A DNA stretch of 64,000 nt from Chiloscyllium plagiosum (taxonomy: Eukaryota), in NCBI RefSeq assembly GCF_004010195.1, contig NC_057754.1:12868701-12932700 (forward strand), given 5' to 3'. Of this stretch, positions 3,715 to 33,900 are shown piece by piece. Position 1 is the stretch's first letter. The number at the start of each line of letters is the position of its first letter. The notes below the pieces were generated by a model. That model searched no databases. It was not told where the DNA came from and saw only the letters and a program-made list of their open reading frames with translations. Position numbers and translations under genes: made by a program.

Positions 3715-6345
3715 CTAAACTGTCTCTATCTCTAAAATGGAAGTTAGACTCGTAGACCATAGAACATTACAGCACAGTACAAGCGCTTTATGGAACCGCT
3801 CGTCTCATAGAGGAAGTTAGACTCATTCAACACAGAACAGTGCAGCGCAGTAAAGGCCCTCTATGGAACCACTCGGCTTATACAGGAAGTTAGACTCATA
3901 GAACATAGAACATTACAGAGCAGAACAGAGCTTTAAGAATCCGCTCAGTTGATATGGAAGTTAGTCTCATAGAACATAGAACATGATAGCGCAGCACAGG
4001 CCCTTTATAGAACTGCTCGGTTAATAAAAGAAGTAGCAACATAGCACATTACAAACCAGTACAGGTCCTTTATGGAACTGCTTGGCTAAGTATGACCGTT
4101 ACATTCATAGGGAATAGAACATGACAGCACAGTACAAACCCTTTATGGAACTGTTCGGCTAATAAAGGAAATTACACTCACAGAACTTAGAACATTACAA
4201 CGCAGTACAGGCCCTTTAGGGAACCGCTCAGCTAATTATGACCGTTATATTAATAGGAAATAGAACATGACAGCGTAGTACAGGCCCTTTATGGAACTGT
4301 TCGGCTAATAAAGGAAGTTAGACTAATACAACATACCACATTACAGCCCAGTAGAGGCCCCTTATGGAACTGCTCAGCTAACAAACGAAATTAGACTCAT
4401 AGAACATTACAACGCAGCCCAGGCTCTCTAGGGAACCGCTCAGCTAATTATGACTGTTATATTCACAGGAAATAGAACATCACAGCGCAGTACAGGCCCT
4501 TTATGGCATCGCTCAGCAAATAAAGGAAGTTCGACTCATCAAACCAAGAACATTACAGCCCAGTAGGGGCCTTTTATTGAACTGCTCGGCTGATAAAAAG
4601 AAGTTAGACTCATCGAACATAAAACATGGCAGCGAAGTACAGGAGCTTTATAGAACCGCCCTTCTAATAAAGTATGTTAGACACATAGAACATATGGCCT
4701 GTACTGTGCTGTAATGTTCTTTATGAAACAGCTCAGCTAATAAAGTAAGTTAGACTAATACAGCATAGAATATAACAGCGCAGTACAGGCTCTTTATGGA
4801 ACGGCTCGGCAAGTACGGGAAGTTAGACTCATAGAACATACAGCATTACAGCGCTGTACAGGCTCTTTATGGAATCACTCCTCTAATAAAGGAGGATAGA
4901 CTCATGGAACATAGAACATTACAGCATACTACATGTCTTTTATGGAACCGCTTGGCCAACAAAGGAAGTTAGACTCATAGAACATAGAAAATTACGTGCA
5001 GGACAGGCCCTTTACGGAACTGTTCGGCTAATAAATGAAGTTAGATACATAGAACATTACAGCGCAGAACAGGCCCTTTGTTGAACCGCTTGGCTTATTA
5101 AGGAAGTTAGACTCATAGAACATAGAACATGACAGAGCAGTGCAGGTTCTTTATAGAACTGTTCAGCGAATAAAGGAAATTAGACACCGAGAACATAGAA
5201 CATTACAGCACACTACATGTCCTTTATGGAACCGCTTAGCCAACAAAGGAAGTTAGATTCATAGAACATAGAAAATTACGTGCAGTACAGGCCCTTCATG
5301 GAACTGCTCAGCTAATAAATGAATTTTGACTAATAGAACATAGAACATTACAGCACAGTACAAAAGCTTTATGGAACCGCTCGGCTAATACAGGTAGTTT
5401 GATTCATAGAACATTGAACATGACAGCGCAGTACAGGCCTTTTATGGAACCACTCGGCAAATAAATGAAGTTAGACTAATACAATTTCGAACGTGACAGT
5501 GCGGTACAGGCCCTTCATGGAACCGTTGGGCTAATGACAGAAGTTGGACGAATAAAACCTAGCACATTACAGCGCAGTGCAGGCCCTTTATGGAACCGCT
5601 CGACTAATAAAGGAAGTTAGACTCATAGAACATGAAATATGACAGCGCAGTACAGGCTGCTTCTGAAACCGCTCGGCAAATAAAGGAAGTTAGTCTAATA
5701 CAATTTCGAACATACAGCCCAGTACAGGCCCTTTATGGAACCATTGAGCTAATAAAGGAAGTTAGGCTCATAGAACACACAGCATTACAGAGCAGTGCAG
5801 GCCCTTTATGGAACCGCTTGGCTAATAAAGAGTTCAACTCATAGAACATAAAATATGACAGTGCAGTAGAGGCCCTTTAAGGAACCGTTCTTCTAAAAAA
5901 GGAAGTTAGACACAGAACATAGGGCCTGTACTGCTCTTTATGAAACCGTTCGGCCAATAAAGGAAGTTAGACTAATGCAGCATAGAATATGACAGTGCAG
6001 TGCAGGCTCTTTATGGAACGGCTCGGCAAATACGGGAAGTTAGACTCATAGAACACACAGCATTACAGGGCAGTAGAGGCCCTTCATGGAACTGTCCGTC
6101 AATAAAGGAAGTTAGACACATAGAACATAGAACATTACAGCGCAGTACAGGTTCTTTATGGAACCGCTCAGCTTATTAAGGAAGTTAGACTCATAGAACA
6201 TAGAACGTGACAGCGCAGTACAGGCCCTTTAGGGAGCCACTCGGCTAATTATGATTGTTTTGATCACAGGAAATAGAGCATTACAGCACAGTACAGGCCT
6301 TTTATGGAATTGCTCAGCCAATAAAGGAAGCCAAACTAATACAAC
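3715..6345 (+). repeat. Tandem array of a ~73-bp unit (about 36 diverged copies)
   Basis: Consensus GGAAGTTAGACTCATAGAACATAGAACATTACAGCGCAGTACAGGCCCTTTATGGAACCGCTCGGCTAATAAA. Some units lack one CATAGAA. Confidence 0.93.
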
Positions 6346-8005: not shown

Positions 8006-8488
8006 GTGTGAATTTGTGTGTGGTTATGTGTGTAACTGTGCATGTCAATGTCTGTATGTGTGGAACTTTTTGTGTGTGGGTATGTGTGTGAGCGTTTATT
8101 TGTGTATGTCGACGTGGTTGTGTGTGTATCTGCGTGTATGAGACCACGTGTGATTATGAGTAATGGCATATGTTACTGCGTGTGTGTGAAACTTTGCGTG
8201 TGCATGTGAATCTGTATGTATGTAAGTATGTGCAGTCGTGTGTGTGTGTGTGTAGATCTCCATGTTTGTGTATGTGAGTGCGTTTGTGTATTTAACTGAG
8301 TATGTATGTCTGTGTGAGCCCATGTATGTTACTGTTTGATTCAGAAGTGAAATGGCCCTTCAAGTGCACATCACAGGTTGTGTGTGTGTTGTGGTTCTGC
8401 AATTATTGACTGCAGGACAGTTTGCGTTATCATGTAAGGAGCTTCCTTCCGCCAGACAGCTCAAAGTGCCACAGAAAATCAATGGAGG

Positions 8489-9551
8489 ATGAGAACTGTC
8501 CTGTTCTTGGTTCTTATGTTCTTTGTGATGGTGCAGCCAGGCACTGCCGACGATGTTGTGAAATAACATCCTCCCTTAGAACATGAGTCCACCTCTCCTG
8601 AAACAGACTTCACAAGCATTCAGAAGGGCAGACTGAAGTCAATCATCCCCCTGAGACCAAGTTCCATTCCGTTGGTTTTAGTTGTCTAGAGCCTAAAATC
8701 AATCAGTTAATATGTACGAATGCTGCTCCTGGGATGCTAAGCCAAGATTTATTGTTCATCCATTATTGCCCAGAAGACATGTAGGAATGAATCTGGAGTC
8801 ACATGTAAATCAGACTTGATAATGACAGCAGATTTCCTTCGCTTAAGGACATTAATGAAATAGCTATTCCCTTGGTTCACCACCACGACCCGGGCCTCGG
8901 ATAATCAGCAGCATTTATATATCTGACATTAGACTACTTGAATATGATTCAAGTTTGATCATCTGTCATGATGAGATTTGAAAACAAGCCCTCAGTACAT
9001 GAGATTGATGGTCCTGGATATGAGTCCAATGTCCCACTCAGTCCACCATCCAGTTTCTGCATTTGGTAAATTATTGCAGACATTTCCCATGAGTGAATAA
9101 TCAACTTCTGTTCTGAAATATTTTATCCTTTTGATCCTTTGGAATAAATAAACAATGGATTGTATCCTTTTAAACCATCCCATGTCAACCTATCCTTGAT
9201 TATATCATAGTTTCAATTGGCAAATTGTTCTTCCTGGGCATGTCCATTATACACCAGTTTCTCATCAGTAACTGAGAGAGCATTTCTCTTTACAGTTCAT
9301 GTGTCCATCTCACGGGGTTGGTTGTAAGTTGTGGCCCCTGACTGCGGGCATCAATGAATTAATTTTCTTTGTTTTCCAGATGAGAGAGAAAGAGTGAGGT
9401 TGGGGGATGAGAGAGAGTAAGAGAGTGTTTGTGTACGACAGAGAGAGAGAAAGAGAAACAATGTCCAGCAGAGGGAGTGCGTGAGTGGGGATTTATGCCT
9501 CGTGCTTGATTCATATTGTCAGAGATGCTCAGCTGCGCAAGATGCTGCAAA
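8489..9551 (+). pseudogene. Beta-defensin-like pseudogene (paralogue of 32848-33841)
   Basis: Exon 1 (8489-8582) reads MRTVLFLVLMFFVMVQPGTADDVVK*HPPLE, with TAA at 8564 and the donor changed to ATGAGT at 8583. The intron is homologous to 32942-33713. The acceptor ttttccag ends at 9379, followed by a GA-rich insert and a frameshifted Cys exon (tgt at 9462, att cat att = IHI, aga tgc tgc aaa = RCCK ending at 9551). Confidence 0.85.
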
Positions 9552-13700: not shown

Positions 13701-14490
13701 AGCCAACCCTAGACTGAATGCCCTGGGCAACAGCGGTGACCAACCCTAGTCTGGATAGCCCGGGAAAGAATGGTGACCAACCCTAGGCTGGATGGCCCAG
13801 GAAACAGAGGTGACCAACCCTAGACTGGATGGCTCAGGCAACAGCGGTGACCAACCCTCGACTGGATGGCCCAGGAAACAGCAGTGACCAACCCGAGACT
13901 TGATGACCCAGGAAACAGCAGTGATCAACATGAGACTGTAAGGCCCAGGAAACAGCAGTGACCAACCCTAGACTGGATGGTCCAGGAAACAGCGGTGACC
14001 AGCACAGCCCTAGTATAAATACCTCCCCATTTCTCCTTTTTTTAGCTTTGACAAAGGGTCAGTTAGACTCGAAACGTCAGTTCTTTTCTCTCCTTACAGA
14101 TGCTGCAAGGTTTACTGAGATTTCCCAGCTTTTTGTCTTTTTTAGGAACAGCAGTGACGAACCCGAGACTGGATGGCCCAGGAGACAGTGGTGACAAACC
14201 CGAGACTGGATGACCCAGGAAACAGCAGTGACCAACCCAAGACTGGATGGCACAGGAAACAGTAGTGACCAACCCGAGACTGGATGGCCCAGGAAACAGC
14301 TGTGATCAACCTGAGACTGGATGGCCCAGGAAATAGTAGTGACCAACCCGAGACTGGATGGCCCAGGAAAGAGCGGTGACCAACCTGAGACTGGATGGCC
14401 CAGGAAACAGCTGTGCTCAACCTGAGACTGGATGGACCAGGAAACAGCAGCGACCAACCCTAGAATGAATGGCCTGGGGAAACAGCCGTA
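13700..14490. repeat. 37-bp tandem repeat (about 17 copies) interrupted by a Penelope-derived insert at about 14005-14140
   Basis: Unit TGGATGGCCCAGGAAACAGC(A/T)GTGACCAACCCGAGAC. Confidence 0.92.
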
Positions 14491-17861: not shown

Positions 17862-20233
17862 TCATCGTGTAACCAGGTGTTTTACTGCGTTACTGATCTT
17901 CGGTCTGAACCCAGACAATGCTGCTGCATAAATAAATGTGTTTATGCAACAACTTAGGAGCTGCAGCTTTATTGAAGTGATACAACTTTATTGGTGCAAC
18001 TTTATTAAAGTGATACAGAAAAGGTGGGAAATCATTAGGATCTATTGTTTGAATGACATAATATAAGAAATTTACAACATAGATTAACCACAGGAGGTTG
18101 AAGCTTTCAGAATGGTAAAGAGCAAAATCACAGACTTCCTTCTGCTCTCCATCTCTGGGTCTCTGTGATTCTCTCCTTTGCTCTCACCCTTCAGCCTCTT
18201 CCAGACTCGGCTGGTCACTAAACTGTGTCTGACTGTCAGAGCATTGAGCAACAGAATAAAACCGAATGGTAGTAAACGAGTCAAAACCGTATCAAGCCAA
18301 TCCACTAAAACCCACCAAGTCTCAGTAAAGTAGCTTGATTTTGTTTTACAGTAGAATGGCACATTGTTGATTAACCTCTGAGGCTCATATTGAAAATAGA
18401 AAGGGATGTTTTTCAAACAGAACAGGGTGCAGGTTGTTTCTAGAACCACAGTCGCAGTTTTCTCAATGCAATATTTTGTTTGCAGCCTCTGACAACAAAT
18501 AGTCACAAATCGGTCAAAGGAAAAAGTGACTGTGAACCAGAGCAGTCACTGGCTGTACATAACAGGACCCAGTAATACTACACACAGGAGTGAGGTCCAG
18601 GAAAGACCATGGGAAATAAGTGGGAAAATCTCCACAGTATAACCACAATGATAATGACCATCAGATCGGCAGCCGCCATCACCTCCAGGTAACGATTTGT
18701 GCAAGGTGAAATACCACACTTTCCTGAGAAAGGATTGCAGTTGCCAGCAAATTAACTGTGGGAGATAAATCGAAAAAGAAACAGTGAATTACTGTTGATA
18801 AAATACCCTGCCTCTTAAAGAGAGCAACAATAAGAATTTATCAACAAAACTTAAAGCATTGTGTGTGTGGAAGTGGCTTGGTGTTGAGTGAGTTTGAATG
18901 TTAAGGCTTTTGATACCACCTCAGATTGACCTCCAGCCCAGTTCTTCCAGAGATTATAGAGTTTAGATCGACACTGAGCTCACGGTCCCTCCTAGGAGAG
19001 CAGAGGGAAGTGTAAGTGTGTTTAATAGATTCTTGCAGTTCTCAGTTCCAACTCTGGCAGCTGCAGAACCCCATGAGAAATCTTTATACAAACTCAGTCA
19101 TAGGAGTGGTGATTGGACTGTCGATAAACCAAACTCTCCCTTTTTCCTTGGATCAGGTCATCGCCTGCACTTCGCATTGGCCCAAGTCCTGATCGGAGCC
19201 ACAACAGGAGCAGGACACAGGTCATCAGAACTATGTAAGGTTTCAAACAAGACTACTCCATGTGCCTTACACAAGTGCAACATAACAGAGCATGCAGGTC
19301 TCCCTGAGTGACAATGTGTGAGTGTTAGGACTGTTGTGATGATTACCCTGTAAATCTACACATCTATACATCACAAATGTCTCAATGTGTGGGGATCAGG
19401 AGGGCAATCTGTCAAGGTTTGAATTCCCTGACCAGAGACGGTGAGGAGAGAATTTCAAGAAGGGATGGCGGTTAGATGAAGCTTTATAAATCAAAATGGG
19501 GCACATATCCCACAATTAATTTGCTGAACAAAACAAACTCTCATTTAAACGGACCAATTGATCCAATATCCACTGCCATTTGTGAAAAAGAGTTCCACAC
19601 CTCTCCCACCCTTTGTGTGTAGAAGTGTTTCCGAACATCTCTCCTGAACACTGGCCCTAATTCTCAGACAGTGCTCCCTCATTCCAGAGTCCTCAACCAA
19701 TGGAATAAGTTTATCTTTTCCTGTTAATATGTTGTAGGATTTGGCTCAGATCATCCCCTAACCTTCAAAATTCTCGCGAAAACAGGTCTCACTTGGATAA
19801 CAAAGACAGAAAAAGCTCAGCAGGACTGACAGCATCTATAGGAGAGAAAGCAGAGTTAATACTTTGTGTCCAGTGACCTTTCTTCAGAACTAACTTGCCT
19901 GATCTCTCCTCATAGCTTCACTCCGTATGAAACCGGAACAGATGACAGAACACTGAGATCTGAGAATGCTGCAGCAGCAGTGATGTTGGGAGTGTCTCTC
20001 AGTGGGGAATTGTACCGAGAATGCTGCTCAGTGAATTGCTGTCACTATTCCCGTGTCTGGAAACGACTAACCAGCCAGTGAGCTGGAGACATTATTGTTC
20101 AAAAGATAAACCCAGAGAGCAGATCAGCAACAGATTAACACATGTTCAATTCTCATGATGCCATACCAGGAACACTAATAAAAGCAAGGATGGTGTAGAA
20201 CACTCTTTCCACGTGATCAATTGGTAGATGCAT
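17862..20233 (-). pseudogene. GPR139/GPR142-like class A GPCR pseudogene (two exons)
   Basis: Exon 1 (20233-20167) reads MHLPIDHVERVFYTILAFISVP followed by the donor gtatgg. Exon 2 starts at 18755 after cccacag and reads VNLLATAILS..KCGISPCTNRYLEVMAAADL..LDLTPVCS..WFTVTFSFDRFVTICCQ..LLPFGFILLLNALTV..DPEMESRRKSVILLF..LLSCCINTFIY. It carries about six frameshifts. Confidence 0.9.
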
Positions 20234-31205: not shown

Positions 31206-32689
31206 ATATGTTCTGGTCGAGGGGTAGTTATTGGTGCCAGAGCACGGGGAGTAAATCTCAAGTTCTCCTTCCAAGAAATGTTTGGGTTTGGTGGAGGTTC
31301 AGATCCTGGGAGAGATACACCGATGGGAACTAGGAGAAAGTTGTTTGGGATAATCAGGAAAATTGCTTTCAAGGCTGGTTAACTGTAACCTTCCGTGTGA
31401 AGGGGAGCTGGAACCTCACTCGGTCATGCCAGGCAGCGTCGGAAGTAAATATGGAATCGGAAAAGGTAGGAACAGTAGAGCAATCAGGAAAGCAGAAGCG
31501 ATAGCTTAATCTCCCAGCCTCGTTCAAACATTATAAATGTACCAAACCCTACTGAATTGTAATGGATTCCTGCTTGACCTCATGCCAATGATGGCCTCAA
31601 CAAGCAGCAGCCGTTCTTAATCTGAAACAAGACATGGCTGCCTTTTTAAAGTTAGCTTTGTGCTTCCTAGGTTTGATGAGGAGATGAGGGAGATGAACTC
31701 AGATCTTCTGGATCAAAGATGGGAACACTTCTATGGAACCACAAGAGCCCTAGGTAACGTGCCTATTATTGTTAATTCTTTAAGAGTAAGTCAGTGCGTG
31801 AGAATCAGCTGGAGACTAATCTCTCGTCAGGGATACAAGAGCAGGCAAAAAACCTGGAAATGAACACAATGAGCAGAAATACTTCCATTTCAGAGGCATG
31901 AGGGAAACAATCTCTGATCATTTTGGACAATCGATCGTTTTGTTAAATATTTGACTCTAAAGCGGATCTCACTGGCCACAAGGCTCCATTCAGTCTCCGA
32001 GAGTTCAATAATTGCTGCATTGTCGAACGGTAAAGACTGGAAAGGATCCAGCATGTCATTGTGCGCTTGTTTGTTCAGTACACAGACTGCCCTCAGCTGA
32101 ATGCTCAAATATCTGTCTCCCATATTGTACACATTGCATTACTATAGACAACACACAGAGTGCACACTGCTCACTGTCCAAATTTCAGTTGTTCCACAGT
32201 GTAAATAATATATCACTGTTGGCAGTACACACTTTCCATACTGCAGAGTGTCCATACGTTAGTTATCTCACGCTGTCGATATTGTATTACTGTGGATGTC
32301 ATATAACGATAGACACTTCACACTTTGCACACTGCTGAGTATTCAAATTCCAGCCACCCCGCAAAGTAGCCGTTGTGTTGCTGTAAACAATCCAGCAGCT
32401 GAATCCTGCTGTGTACCCAAATATCAGGAATCCCACACTGTCGCTATCATATTAGTGCAGATTGTGTCTGTGTGTGTGTCTGTCTGCCTGCTTGTGTCTT
32501 TGTGTGTGTGTGTTTGTATGAGTGTATCTGTGTGTATGCGTGGGTATGCATATGCATTTATAATTGTGTATATGGGTATAAACTATTTTGCGTTTGCATG
32601 TATGTGTATCAGTGATTGTGTATATGGTATATATTGGTTTCTGTGTGTGTCTGGTTGCTTAAGTACACATTTCTTTGTCTGTTTGTGTT

Positions 32690-32847
32690 ATTGTTTGACT
32701 CATAATTCAAATGTCCCCTTCACGTGTGCATCACGGATTCTATCCGTGTTGTGGTTTTGCAATTATTGACTGCGGAACAATTTGTGTACCATTTAAGAAG
32801 CTTCCATCCTCCAGGCAGCTTATAGTGCAGCAGAACGTCAGGGGAAG
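32690..32847 (+). promoter_or_regulatory. Candidate beta-defensin proximal promoter and 5' UTR
   Basis: AP-1 TGACTCA (32696), E-box CACGTG (32721), RUNX TGTGGTT (32750) overlapping C/EBP-like TTTTGCAAT (32755), and TATA-like TTTAAGAA (32792). The block is conserved at 8330-8488. Confidence 0.55.
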
Positions 32848-33841
32848 ATGAGAACCGTCCTGTTCTTCGTTTCTGTGGCCTTCGTGATGGCGCAGCCAGG
32901 CACTGCGGATGAAGTCATGAAACAACGTCTTTCCTTTAAACGTGAGTCCATTTATCCTCAAACAATATTCACAAACATTCAGTGGGTAGCTTGAACTAAC
33001 TCATCTCTCTGAAGACCACATTTTAACCCATTGGCTTAAAAACCTAAAATCAATCAGTTAATATGCACGATAACCATTTGTGGAATGCTAAGCCAAAATT
33101 TATTGTCCATCCATTATTGTCCAGAAGGCACTTAGGAATGAATCTGGAGTCACATGCAAATCAGACCAATTAATGTCAATAGGTTTCCTTCGCTTAAGGA
33201 CATTAACGAAGTAGCTATTTTCTTGTGTCACCACCAGCATCCCTTCGCCAGATATTCAACAGCATTTCCATACTTTACATGAGATTATTTGAATATAATT
33301 CATATTTCATCATCTTCCTCGATGAGATTCAAAGGCAGCTCTTCAGAACATGAGCTTGATGGTTTTGGATATCCAGTGATAGTCCCATCAGTCTACCCTG
33401 TGCATTTGATGAATTATGGCAGACATTTCCCATGAGTGAACAATCCACTTCAGTTCTGAAACATTTCGTGTTTTTCTTTTTCCTTTTGGAGTAAATAAAC
33501 AGCAGATTATACACTTTAAGACCATCCCCTGTCAATGCATGACCACCAATGACCTACTCTTAATCACATCATTGTTGCAAACGACAGATTGCCCTTCATC
33601 GGAATGGCCTCTGTTCATCATGTACAGATTTTTCATCAGGGGTCTCACAGGCTGAGGTGAAATCTTGGCCACTGACTGCAGGAATCAATTAGCTTCTCGT
33701 CTATGCTTTCCAGATTTATTCAGGCACTGTGAAATTATCAGAGGGGTGTGCAGAGATGGACCATGTTTCGATGATGAAATCCACATCGCTGTGAGGTGCG
33801 CAAATTTTGACCGTTGCTGCAAAAAAGACCTGAAAAAGTAA
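32848..33841 (+). CDS. Beta-defensin-like prepropeptide, 73 aa, join(32848..32941,33714..33841)
   Basis: MRTVLFFVSVAFVMAQPGTADEVMKQRLSFK|HLFRHCEIIRGVCRDGPCFDDEIHIAVRCANFDRCCKKDLKK*. Hydrophobic signal peptide, phase-1 GT-AG intron (gtgagt...tttccag), six Cys as C-x6-C-x4-C-x10-C-x5-CC, and GxC at Cys2. The 222-nt spliced ORF is uninterrupted. Confidence 0.9.
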
Positions 33842-33894
33842 GGTTAATCTGAGGCTGTGCCTGAAGCTAACTGCAGTCTCGCTTCTGAGTCGTG

Positions 33895-33900
33895 ATTAAA
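33895..33900 (+). terminator. Polyadenylation signal (ATTAAA) of the defensin gene
   Basis: Lies about 55 nt after the stop codon and is followed by GT-rich sequence. Confidence 0.6.

What the first reader, a model, noticed from the sequence alone, without database searches (positions are those of the whole stretch)
32848..33900. Intact two-exon beta-defensin gene missed by the ORF track
Seen in sequence: splicing 32848-32941 to 33714-33841 gives a 73-aa open frame. It has a signal peptide (likely cleavage GTA|DE), a short pro-like segment, six Cys in beta-defensin spacing (6-4-10-5-CC) with GxC, and an ATTAAA signal. Established: signal exon, phase-1 intron and Cys exon is the vertebrate beta-defensin layout. 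Inference: defensins of cartilaginous fish are poorly characterised as far as I know, and small split genes like this are often unannotated, so this may be an undescribed shark host-defence peptide.
Basis: partly seen in the sequence, partly recalled or inferred. Interest (0 to 1): 0.92.

Follow-up and report, generated by a model that had tools for sequence, protein, structure and literature searches.

The report
Shark beta-defensin gene, expanded family
Two small exons form an intact gene for a secreted six-cysteine beta-defensin-type defence peptide, one member of a large and fast-changing family in this shark genome, but whether this particular copy is switched on is untested and its promoter looks weakened.

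Summary
Observation confirmed: exons 32848-32941 and 33714-33841 join through a 772-nt GT-AG phase-1 intron into a 73-codon frame with a hydrophobic leader and Cys spacing 6-4-10-5-CC. The predicted fold ranks beta-defensins first, without a significant score; Pfam hits stay below cut-off. Conserved splice sites in paralogues support the gene model (14 of 14 compared). The genome holds at least 126 related exon-2 places, 77 with six Cys and no stop, in 21 sequence clusters; 18 of 26 loci examined are complete two-exon models. Across 14 paralogues the mature exon changes 2.3 times faster than the intron (omega 1.5-2.1). Against this copy: its TATA box reads TTTAAG where 15 of 15 paralogues keep TATA, and its own branch shows no clear constraint. 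Expression and activity are untested. Nine literature searches found no shark beta-defensin paper, but one bamboo-shark paralogue already carries an automatic 'Beta-defensin' label. The scan noted this family four times before, on other DNA of this genome. Verdict: new member of a known kind.

The parts
32755..32763 (+). TTTTGCAAT, resembles a C/EBP (NF-IL6) site; the consensus is recalled, not from a call
   Evidence: A match to the recalled pattern at about -93 in 9 of 15 upstream regions, including the pseudogene; one of the 15 is all N. No shuffle control; a lead only.
32792..32797 (+). TATA-box position; reads TTTAAG in this copy
   Evidence: 15 of 15 other paralogues with this exon 1 keep TATA here; the pseudogene copy reads TGTAAG. 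A contig of DNA run X1 matches 32660-32982 with 0 other letters.
32848..32907 (+). Signal-peptide codons 1-20 (exon 1)
   Evidence: Translation, hydropathy, conserved in 14 paralogues. The cleavage site is inferred.
32908..32941 (+). Short pro-like segment (exon 1, 11 codons plus one base)
   Evidence: Exon 1 is 91-100 nt in every subfamily where it was found.
32942..33713 (+). Phase-1 GT-AG intron, 772 nt
   Evidence: Homologous introns of 592-815 nt with identical ends in 14 of 14 paralogues.
33714..33841 (+). Exon 2: six-Cys beta-defensin domain (Cys1-Cys6 at 33728-33820) and stop codon
33842..33900 (+). 3' UTR with ATTAAA at 33895-33900; lacks about 53 nt near 33878 that the C16 paralogues have
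   Evidence: Run X1 has a contig identical over 33434-33877 that continues with paralogue-like UTR letters.
8342..9381 (+). Broken second copy (pseudogene): ATG at 8489, stop at codon 26, donor AT instead of GT, acceptor kept at 9379, exon 2 not significantly recognisable
   Evidence: 75.7% identity over 856 nt plus 76% over 50 nt. The exon-2 remnant scores 87 against a shuffle mean of 73 and maximum of 96.

Best explanation
This is a beta-defensin gene of a shark-specific expanded family, and it most likely makes a secreted host-defence peptide at an epithelial surface. SHOWN: intact two-exon frame, conserved splice sites, hydrophobic leader, six-Cys motif, a predicted helix plus three-strand fold, and a birth-and-death family whose mature exon diversifies fast. 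INFERRED from beta-defensin biology: the leader takes the 73-aa precursor into the ER and is cut after Ala20; three disulfides form (1-5, 2-4, 3-6); the 11-12-residue pro-segment may be trimmed; a 4.8-6.3 kDa peptide is secreted. Its net charge is only +2 to +3 and it has an acidic DDE patch. I therefore think it acts more by binding a target (a microbial surface molecule or a host chemokine-type receptor) than by strong electrostatic membrane lysis in salt water; this step is my inference. The TTTAAG promoter suggests lower expression than in its TATA-bearing paralogues.
For: Spacing 6-4-10-5-CC fits the beta-defensin consensus C-X4-8-C-X3-5-C-X9-13-C-X4-7-CC (PMC515299 Background). A phase-1 intron 5' of the Cys region is the shared beta/big-defensin hallmark (PMC7203481 passages). 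Pfam's only two hits are beta-defensin families, and 9 of 21 family members hit PF00711 at E<=0.1, best 8.9e-6. The PDB sequence hit is spheniscin-2, E 0.07. The model has pLDDT 83.2, H4-7 and three strands; Foldseek ranks 1-15 and VIA ranks 1-8 are all beta-defensins. The three ESM Atlas clusters shown are beta-defensins, score 0.78-0.83, a lead only. Family: 126 exon-2 places, 77 intact in the strict spacing, 74 of those with AG 14 nt before Cys1. Tree length on one topology: mature core 3.58, intron 1.54, exon 1 1.14. Omega of the core is 1.49 (MG, LRT p 0.043) to 2.1 (GY), and 2.2 without the six Cys codons (p 0.0002); exon 1 is 1.14 (p 0.60). Positive selection on the mature region only is reported for mammalian defensins (PMC515299 passage).
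Against: Both Pfam scores are below cut-off (16.8 vs 22.2; 14.4 vs 21). No fold match is significant: best Foldseek E 0.42, best Z 4.5. The TATA box is changed in this copy alone among intact paralogues. On its own branch exon 2 changed at about the intron rate (0.045 vs 0.052) with 5 nonsynonymous and 0 synonymous changes by rough polarisation; the burst of change lies on the C46 branch (0.84 vs 0.059). A neutral copy keeps frame, Cys and splice sites in 7-24% of simulations over such a branch. Pooled pN vs pS over six disjoint pairs is not significant (p 0.12; 1 of 6 pairs p 0.028), and in two pairs pS also exceeds the intron rate. The core tree rejects the intron topology (AU p 0.012, fewer replicates than recommended), so gene conversion or exon exchange may inflate the rates. 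The copy sits alone beside a pseudogene.
Confidence: 0.55

Rival explanations
1. The copy is a true beta-defensin family member but is silent or nearly so: a young pseudogene whose frame has not yet decayed.
For: TTTAAG instead of TATA, against 15 of 15 paralogues. No detectable constraint on its branch. 7-24% neutral survival. 49 of 126 exon-2 places in the family fail the intact pattern. A broken copy lies 24 kb away, and its two nearest exon-2 relatives on C16 share only the 3' part of the intron.
Against: ATG, donor, acceptor, six Cys, stop and ATTAAA are all intact, which neutral drift usually breaks (76-93% of simulations). TTTAA variants can support transcription, and two other subfamily members with intact frames show no TATA in 120 nt upstream (the variant claim is recalled).
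Confidence: 0.25
2. The gene is expressed, but its main role is reproductive (sperm coating or maturation, or protection of the male or female tract and egg case), as for the expanded epididymal beta-defensins of mammals.
For: Mammalian expansions are tied to epididymal expression and sperm function (PMC6362941 passages). Many family members are neutral or acidic: 26 of 74 have net charge <=0. Sharks fertilise internally (own knowledge), whereas teleosts had at most four genes per species in a 2014 review.
Against: No tissue data. Fish beta-defensins are mostly highest in skin and immune organs (PMC3978493 passages). This copy is net positive and lacks a long C-terminal tail.
Confidence: 0.14
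3. It is a defensin-fold peptide recruited to a non-immune receptor or ion-channel role, as with platypus defensin-like peptides or crotamine.
For: Such peptides share the fold and appear in the lists: 2mn3 at VIA Z 3.2 and crotamine at Z 2.9; 2mn3 is the top profile hit, E 0.23. Fast mature-exon evolution is also typical of such families (own knowledge).
Against: They rank below or tie with immune beta-defensins. Nothing in the window points to a venom system.
Confidence: 0.05
4. The pattern is a chance arrangement in repeat-rich DNA.
For: Sub-threshold Pfam scores; three word-index protein searches found nothing.
Against: 0 of 200 shuffles give the motif; 14 of 14 paralogues share both splice sites.
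Confidence: 0.01

Closest known systems
Tetrapod beta-defensins (Pfam PF00711, PF13841; hBD-1, hBD-2 1fd3, hBD-4 5ki9, mallard AvBD3 7lzl, crocodile CpoBD13 7t9q, penguin spheniscin-2 1ut3)
   Same: Six-Cys motif inside the consensus; all six Cys in one exon behind a signal/pro exon; phase-1 intron; predicted helix plus three strands; fast-evolving mature exon; multigene clusters with pseudogenes.
   Different: Below the Pfam cut-offs; 19-39% identity in the top 15 structural matches. Weakly cationic, with a Glu four residues after Cys3 kept in 17 of 21 clusters. An 11-12-residue pro-segment, whereas mammalian mature peptides follow the signal directly (PMC3978493). Clusters lie on C45, C46, C49 and C50, and none was seen beside cathepsin B on C9.
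Teleost beta-defensins (zebrafish BD-1 to BD-3, seabream defb1/defb2)
   Same: Precursor length (73 aa vs 60-77), prepropeptide, net charge within +1 to +5 (PMC3978493).
   Different: Teleost genes have three exons with the Cys split 4+2 (PMC11541337) and up to four genes per species (2014 review); here two coding exons and at least 18 complete models.
Invertebrate and amphioxus big defensins
   Same: Phase-1 intron before the Cys module; the C-terminal domain superposes (6qbk, Z 3.3).
   Different: No hydrophobic N-terminal domain: only about 12 residues lie between the leader and exon 2.
Chiloscyllium punctatum chiPu_0020313 (GCC16467.1, UniRef100_A0A401REA7, labelled 'Beta-defensin')
   Same: Same family; best hit of the family profile (E 1.6e-8); 74% identical over 46 aa to a C49 paralogue.
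   Different: A different subfamily from the window gene. The record is a 71-aa 'hypothetical protein' whose N-terminus runs into what is the intron end in the paralogues, so it lacks the signal exon.

Membership tests
Vertebrate beta-defensins | Six Cys as C-X4-8-C-X3-5-C-X9-13-C-X4-7-CC | tested here: met
   6-4-10-5-CC; consensus from PMC515299.
Vertebrate beta-defensins | Phase-1 intron just 5' of the Cys module; signal/pro exon separate | tested here: met
   Genomic layout; identical sites in 14 of 14 paralogues; hallmark per PMC7203481. Use in RNA not shown.
Vertebrate beta-defensins | N-terminal hydrophobic secretion leader | tested here: met
   Hydropathy 2.9 over 11 residues from residue 4 and conservation. 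No SignalP; the cleavage site is not tested.
Vertebrate beta-defensins | Short helix plus three-stranded sheet | tested here: met
   Model pLDDT 83.2, H4-7, E11-13, E21-24, E33-37; top rows are beta-defensins, TM 0.57-0.68 for ranks 1-15, but no E<=0.001 and best Z 4.5.
Vertebrate beta-defensins | Disulfide pairing C1-C5, C2-C4, C3-C6 | not testable with these tools
   Model coordinates are not returned; the pairing is inferred from spacing and superposition.
Vertebrate beta-defensins | Profile match (PF00711 / PF13841) | tested here: inconclusive
   Only beta-defensin families hit, but below cut-off; 9 of 21 members hit PF00711 at E<=0.1.
Vertebrate beta-defensins | Cationic mature peptide | tested here: met
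   Net +2 (exon-2 part) to +3 (after residue 20), pI 8.3-8.6; weak.
Vertebrate beta-defensins | Expression and antimicrobial or chemotactic activity | not testable with these tools
   Needs tissue RNA and assays.
Tetrapod cathepsin-B-linked beta-defensin cluster (orthology) | Adjacent to CTSB | tested here: not met
   The cathepsin B propeptide maps to C9:579 kb, the window to C45. No defensin exon in C9:580-680 kb (about 6.8 kb of N). Wider flanks not read.
Teleost beta-defensins | Three exons, Cys split over two exons | tested here: not met
   All six Cys and the stop lie in one exon.
Big defensins | Hydrophobic N-terminal domain before the Cys module | tested here: not met
   73-aa precursor with about 12 residues between leader and exon 2.
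Alpha-defensins | C-X1-C-X3-4-C-X9-C-X6-10-CC | tested here: not met
   First spacing is 6; consensus.

The most novel reading that the evidence does not exclude
Sharks carry an unreported, mammal-scale beta-defensin repertoire (tens of working genes in at least 20 subfamilies, many neutral or acidic) on several of the smallest chromosome-scale scaffolds. It keeps the two-exon layout that would then be ancestral for jawed vertebrates, with the teleost three-exon, few-gene state derived. This gene is an expressed member, and the family supplies salt-tolerant, target-binding defence peptides.
Probability: 0.4. Interest if true: 0.65.

Novelty: new member of a known kind. Interest (0 to 1): 0.45.

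Why it matters
Reviews I read place beta-defensins 'from teleost fish to mammals' (PMC7203481) and name no defensin among the antimicrobials isolated from sharks and skates (PMC6795676 section 14; PMC12734493 table). A two-exon family in a shark fills the gap between amphioxus big defensins and bony-vertebrate beta-defensins. It points to the two-exon layout as ancestral and shows that large expansions are not confined to amniotes. It also offers at least 66 distinct natural six-Cys cores from a marine animal for testing salt-tolerant activity. The existence of shark beta-defensins would not surprise a specialist; the size and diversity of the family might. This single copy is not the best representative for assays because of its altered TATA box.

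Tried and rejected
RNA: no RNA holder listed among 16 runs. Two single-cell RNA runs, read at about 2 and 6 in 100, laid 0 reads, which the tool marks as no test; run X7 gave only five short 90-95% pieces inside the intron. None of this is evidence on expression. Run X1 covers the intron, so it behaves as DNA, and it may not be independent of the assembly.

Protein searches: the word-index search found nothing with the exon-2 peptide (33-107 aa), alignment A2 (80-2000 aa; 3278 candidates) or A3 (20-107 aa; 10 candidates). The full HMMER search gave 4 hits: one real family member; P0004, a repetitive protein with 5 matched stretches, set aside; P0005 and P0006 (10 stretches each) not inspected. 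No orthologue of the window gene in another species was found; other shark genomes cannot be searched here.

PF00711 against the own genome gave 28 weak matches, best E 0.15. The script found the six-Cys motif in only a minority of them, and the same search rings in 3 of 14 control genomes. CTSB synteny was not found in 100 kb. The pseudogene's exon-2 remnant is not above shuffles. No exon 1 was found within 10 kb upstream of two C8-type copies, two C49 'CEFVGG'-type copies, two C46 'CGKDNG'-type copies or the C16 copies (some stretches contain N).

Literature: nine searches; six exact phrases such as 'shark defensin' gave 0 papers. Most subscription journals are not in the library, so absence from print is not shown. 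No supplements were opened; gene tables of shark genome papers could list such genes. Complex prediction was not run, since no specific partner is claimed.

Full report
OBSERVATION. The sequence matches the finding exactly. Exon 1 is 32848-32941 and ends at a GTGAGT donor; a 772-nt intron ends in a pyrimidine tract and CAG; exon 2 is 33714-33841. The joined frame has 73 codons with a phase-1 junction in codon 32, a hydrophobic leader, six Cys spaced 6-4-10-5-CC at 33728-33820, and ATTAAA at 33895. The strict motif occurs once in the window and in 0 of 200 shuffles; a loose motif occurs in 4 of 100. The rest of the window looks like retroelement fragments and simple repeats (two ORFs give sub-cut-off RVT_1 hits), plus a broken rhodopsin-family receptor.

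WHAT IT IS. The exon-2 peptide hits only beta-defensin Pfam families, both below cut-off, and only spheniscin-2 in the PDB (E 0.07). A model built with 21 family members has pLDDT 83.2 and a short helix plus three strands. Foldseek ranks 1-15 are beta-defensins (best E 0.42); VIA-align ranks 1-8 of 48,161 chains are beta-defensins (best Z 4.5, rmsd 2.7 over 36 residues). No single score is significant, which is usual for 41 residues; the agreement of motif, layout and ranking carries the assignment. The spacing fits the published consensus (PMC515299, Background section and passages read), and the phase-1 intron is the hallmark shared with big defensins (PMC7203481, passages).

THE FAMILY. The window lies on C45 of a 3.56-Gb genome. 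The exon-2 peptide gave 53 matches at E<=10 and exon-1 DNA gave 19; four further paralogue queries gave 76, 17, 52 and 92. I could fetch only part of these. A profile run over 208 fetched loci found 126 distinct exon-2 places. Of these, 77 have six Cys in the 6-4-10-5 spacing without a stop (the filter imposes this spacing) and 74 of the 77 have AG exactly 14 nt before Cys1. They give 66 distinct cores in 21 clusters at 60% identity. Placed copies: C49 23, C46 9, C50 9, C8 7, and 10 on eight other scaffolds; 68 lie on unplaced contigs, some probably allelic. The count is a lower bound on places but overstates genes. One subfamily (C8 type, about 60 long matches) looks passively amplified: no exon 1 found, few private changes per copy, omega 0.73 and not different from 1 among 26 of the 30 best hits (these were picked by protein similarity). 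Of 26 loci examined for both exons, 18 give complete models with six Cys, GT and AG (13 in the window gene's clade, 5 in others), and one more is possible. The only named relative in public protein sets is a Chiloscyllium punctatum hypothetical protein labelled 'Beta-defensin' in UniRef, 74% identical over 46 aa to a C49 paralogue. This places the genome among sharks.

EVOLUTION. Among 14 two-exon genes of the window's clade, the mature core is more diverged than the intron in 88 of 91 pairs (not independent). Against the nearest C46 genes the distances are exon 1 0.10-0.14, intron 0.15-0.18 and core 0.49-0.55. Tree lengths on the intron topology are core 3.58, intron 1.54, exon 1 1.14. Codon models give core omega 1.49 (MG; p 0.043 against 1), 1.69 (MGK) and 2.1 (GY), and 2.2 when the Cys codons are dropped (p 0.0002); exon 1 is 1.14 (p 0.60). 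Against a simple reading: pooled pN vs pS over six disjoint pairs is not significant (p 0.12), pS exceeds the intron rate in two pairs, and the core rejects the intron tree (AU p 0.012, under-replicated), so conversion or exon exchange may contribute.

THIS COPY. With two 5'-truncated C16 copies added, the burst falls on the C46 stem (core 0.84, intron 0.059), while the window's own branch has core 0.045 and intron 0.052, with 5 nonsynonymous and 0 synonymous changes by rough polarisation; the split is nearly a trichotomy (68% support). Neutral simulation leaves frame, Cys and splice sites intact in 7-24% of runs, so intactness favours but does not prove function. Fifteen of 15 other paralogues with this exon 1 keep TATA about 56 nt upstream of ATG; this copy reads TTTAAG at 32792-32797 and the pseudogene at 8342-9381 reads TGTAAG. 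A contig of DNA run X1 shows the same letters, so this is unlikely to be an assembly error. The 3' UTR lacks about 53 nt found in the C16 paralogues; an X1 contig appears to carry them, suggesting an allele or an assembly slip. Expression could not be tested.

MECHANISM. Shown: gene anatomy, family, predicted fold, net charge +2 to +3. Inferred: ER entry, cleavage after Ala20, 1-5/2-4/3-6 disulfides (pairing from PMC7203481), secretion. Fish beta-defensins are moderately antibacterial, inducible and high in skin, and mammalian ones are chemotactic through CCR6 (PMC3978493, passages). Given the weak charge and that 26 of 74 intact family cores are neutral or acidic, I favour target binding or immune signalling over strong lysis; this is inference. 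Odds: working host-defence gene 0.55, silent copy 0.25, mainly reproductive 0.14 (PMC6362941, passages), other receptor or toxin-like role 0.05. Family membership as a beta-defensin gene is about 0.95.

COMPARISON AND NOVELTY. The layout is tetrapod-like (two coding exons, Cys in one exon), not teleost-like (three exons; PMC11541337, passages). It is not beside cathepsin B in the 100 kb read, unlike the chicken, human and mouse clusters. Nine searches found no paper on shark beta-defensins. I read section 14 and passages of PMC6795676 and passages of PMC10707392, PMC13337447 and PMC12734493; none mentions one. Other papers were seen as listings only, no supplements were opened, and most subscription journals are outside the library. 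Four earlier notes of this scan describe the same family on other pieces of this genome; they are not independent support, and my family counts predate or do not rely on them. Verdict: a real, new member of a known kind. The interest lies in the size of the family more than in this copy.

Noticed in passing
window 8342-9381 (+): Pseudogene copy of the same gene: stop at codon 26, donor AT, TATA position changed, exon 2 eroded.
   Followed up: yes
window about 17950-18900 (-): Broken rhodopsin-family GPCR gene with stops and frameshifts; PF00001 E 1.9e-7 on 18084-18542.
   Followed up: partly
L159-L188 (C7, C8, C23, C32, C38, unplaced); further rows on C6, C11, C16, C39, C47, C48: A defensin exon-2 subfamily spread as dozens of near-identical copies inside a shared block of about 2.3 kb with LINE fragments; no exon 1 found; evolution looks neutral. 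Possibly carried by a mobile or duplicated unit.
   Followed up: partly
L139 (C16:72.35 Mb): Two copies 4.8 kb apart, 70% identical in peptide to the window's exon 2, sharing only the 3' part of the intron; one has a stop at Cys6.
   Followed up: partly
L018-L023 (C46:3.84-4.31 Mb): Closest two-exon paralogues: exon 1 region 85-91% identical in DNA but mature peptide only 24-39% identical; an extreme burst of change confined to the coding core.
   Followed up: partly
C49 (1.4-7.9 Mb) and C50 (1.8-7.8 Mb): Megabase-scale clusters with 23 and 9 exon-2 places among fetched loci; one C49 subfamily has a long hydrophobic C-terminal tail.
   Followed up: partly
L094/L197 (C46:3859743 and 3860126): Two nearly identical Cys exons only 383 nt apart in tandem.
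   Followed up: no
window 33878-33880: 3' UTR deletion of about 53 nt relative to the C16 paralogues; DNA run X1 seems to hold the longer form.
   Followed up: partly
window 3732-6330 and 13703-14486: Tandem arrays: a 73-nt unit in about 36 copies, and a 37-nt unit in two blocks of 8-9 copies.
   Followed up: no
window 25956-25855 (-): A second loose six-Cys pattern in an open stretch, on the strand of a LINE-like fragment; probably chance.
   Followed up: no
L189-L190 (C9:579039-579244, -): Cathepsin B propeptide exons near the start of C9; no defensin exon in the next 100 kb.
   Followed up: partly
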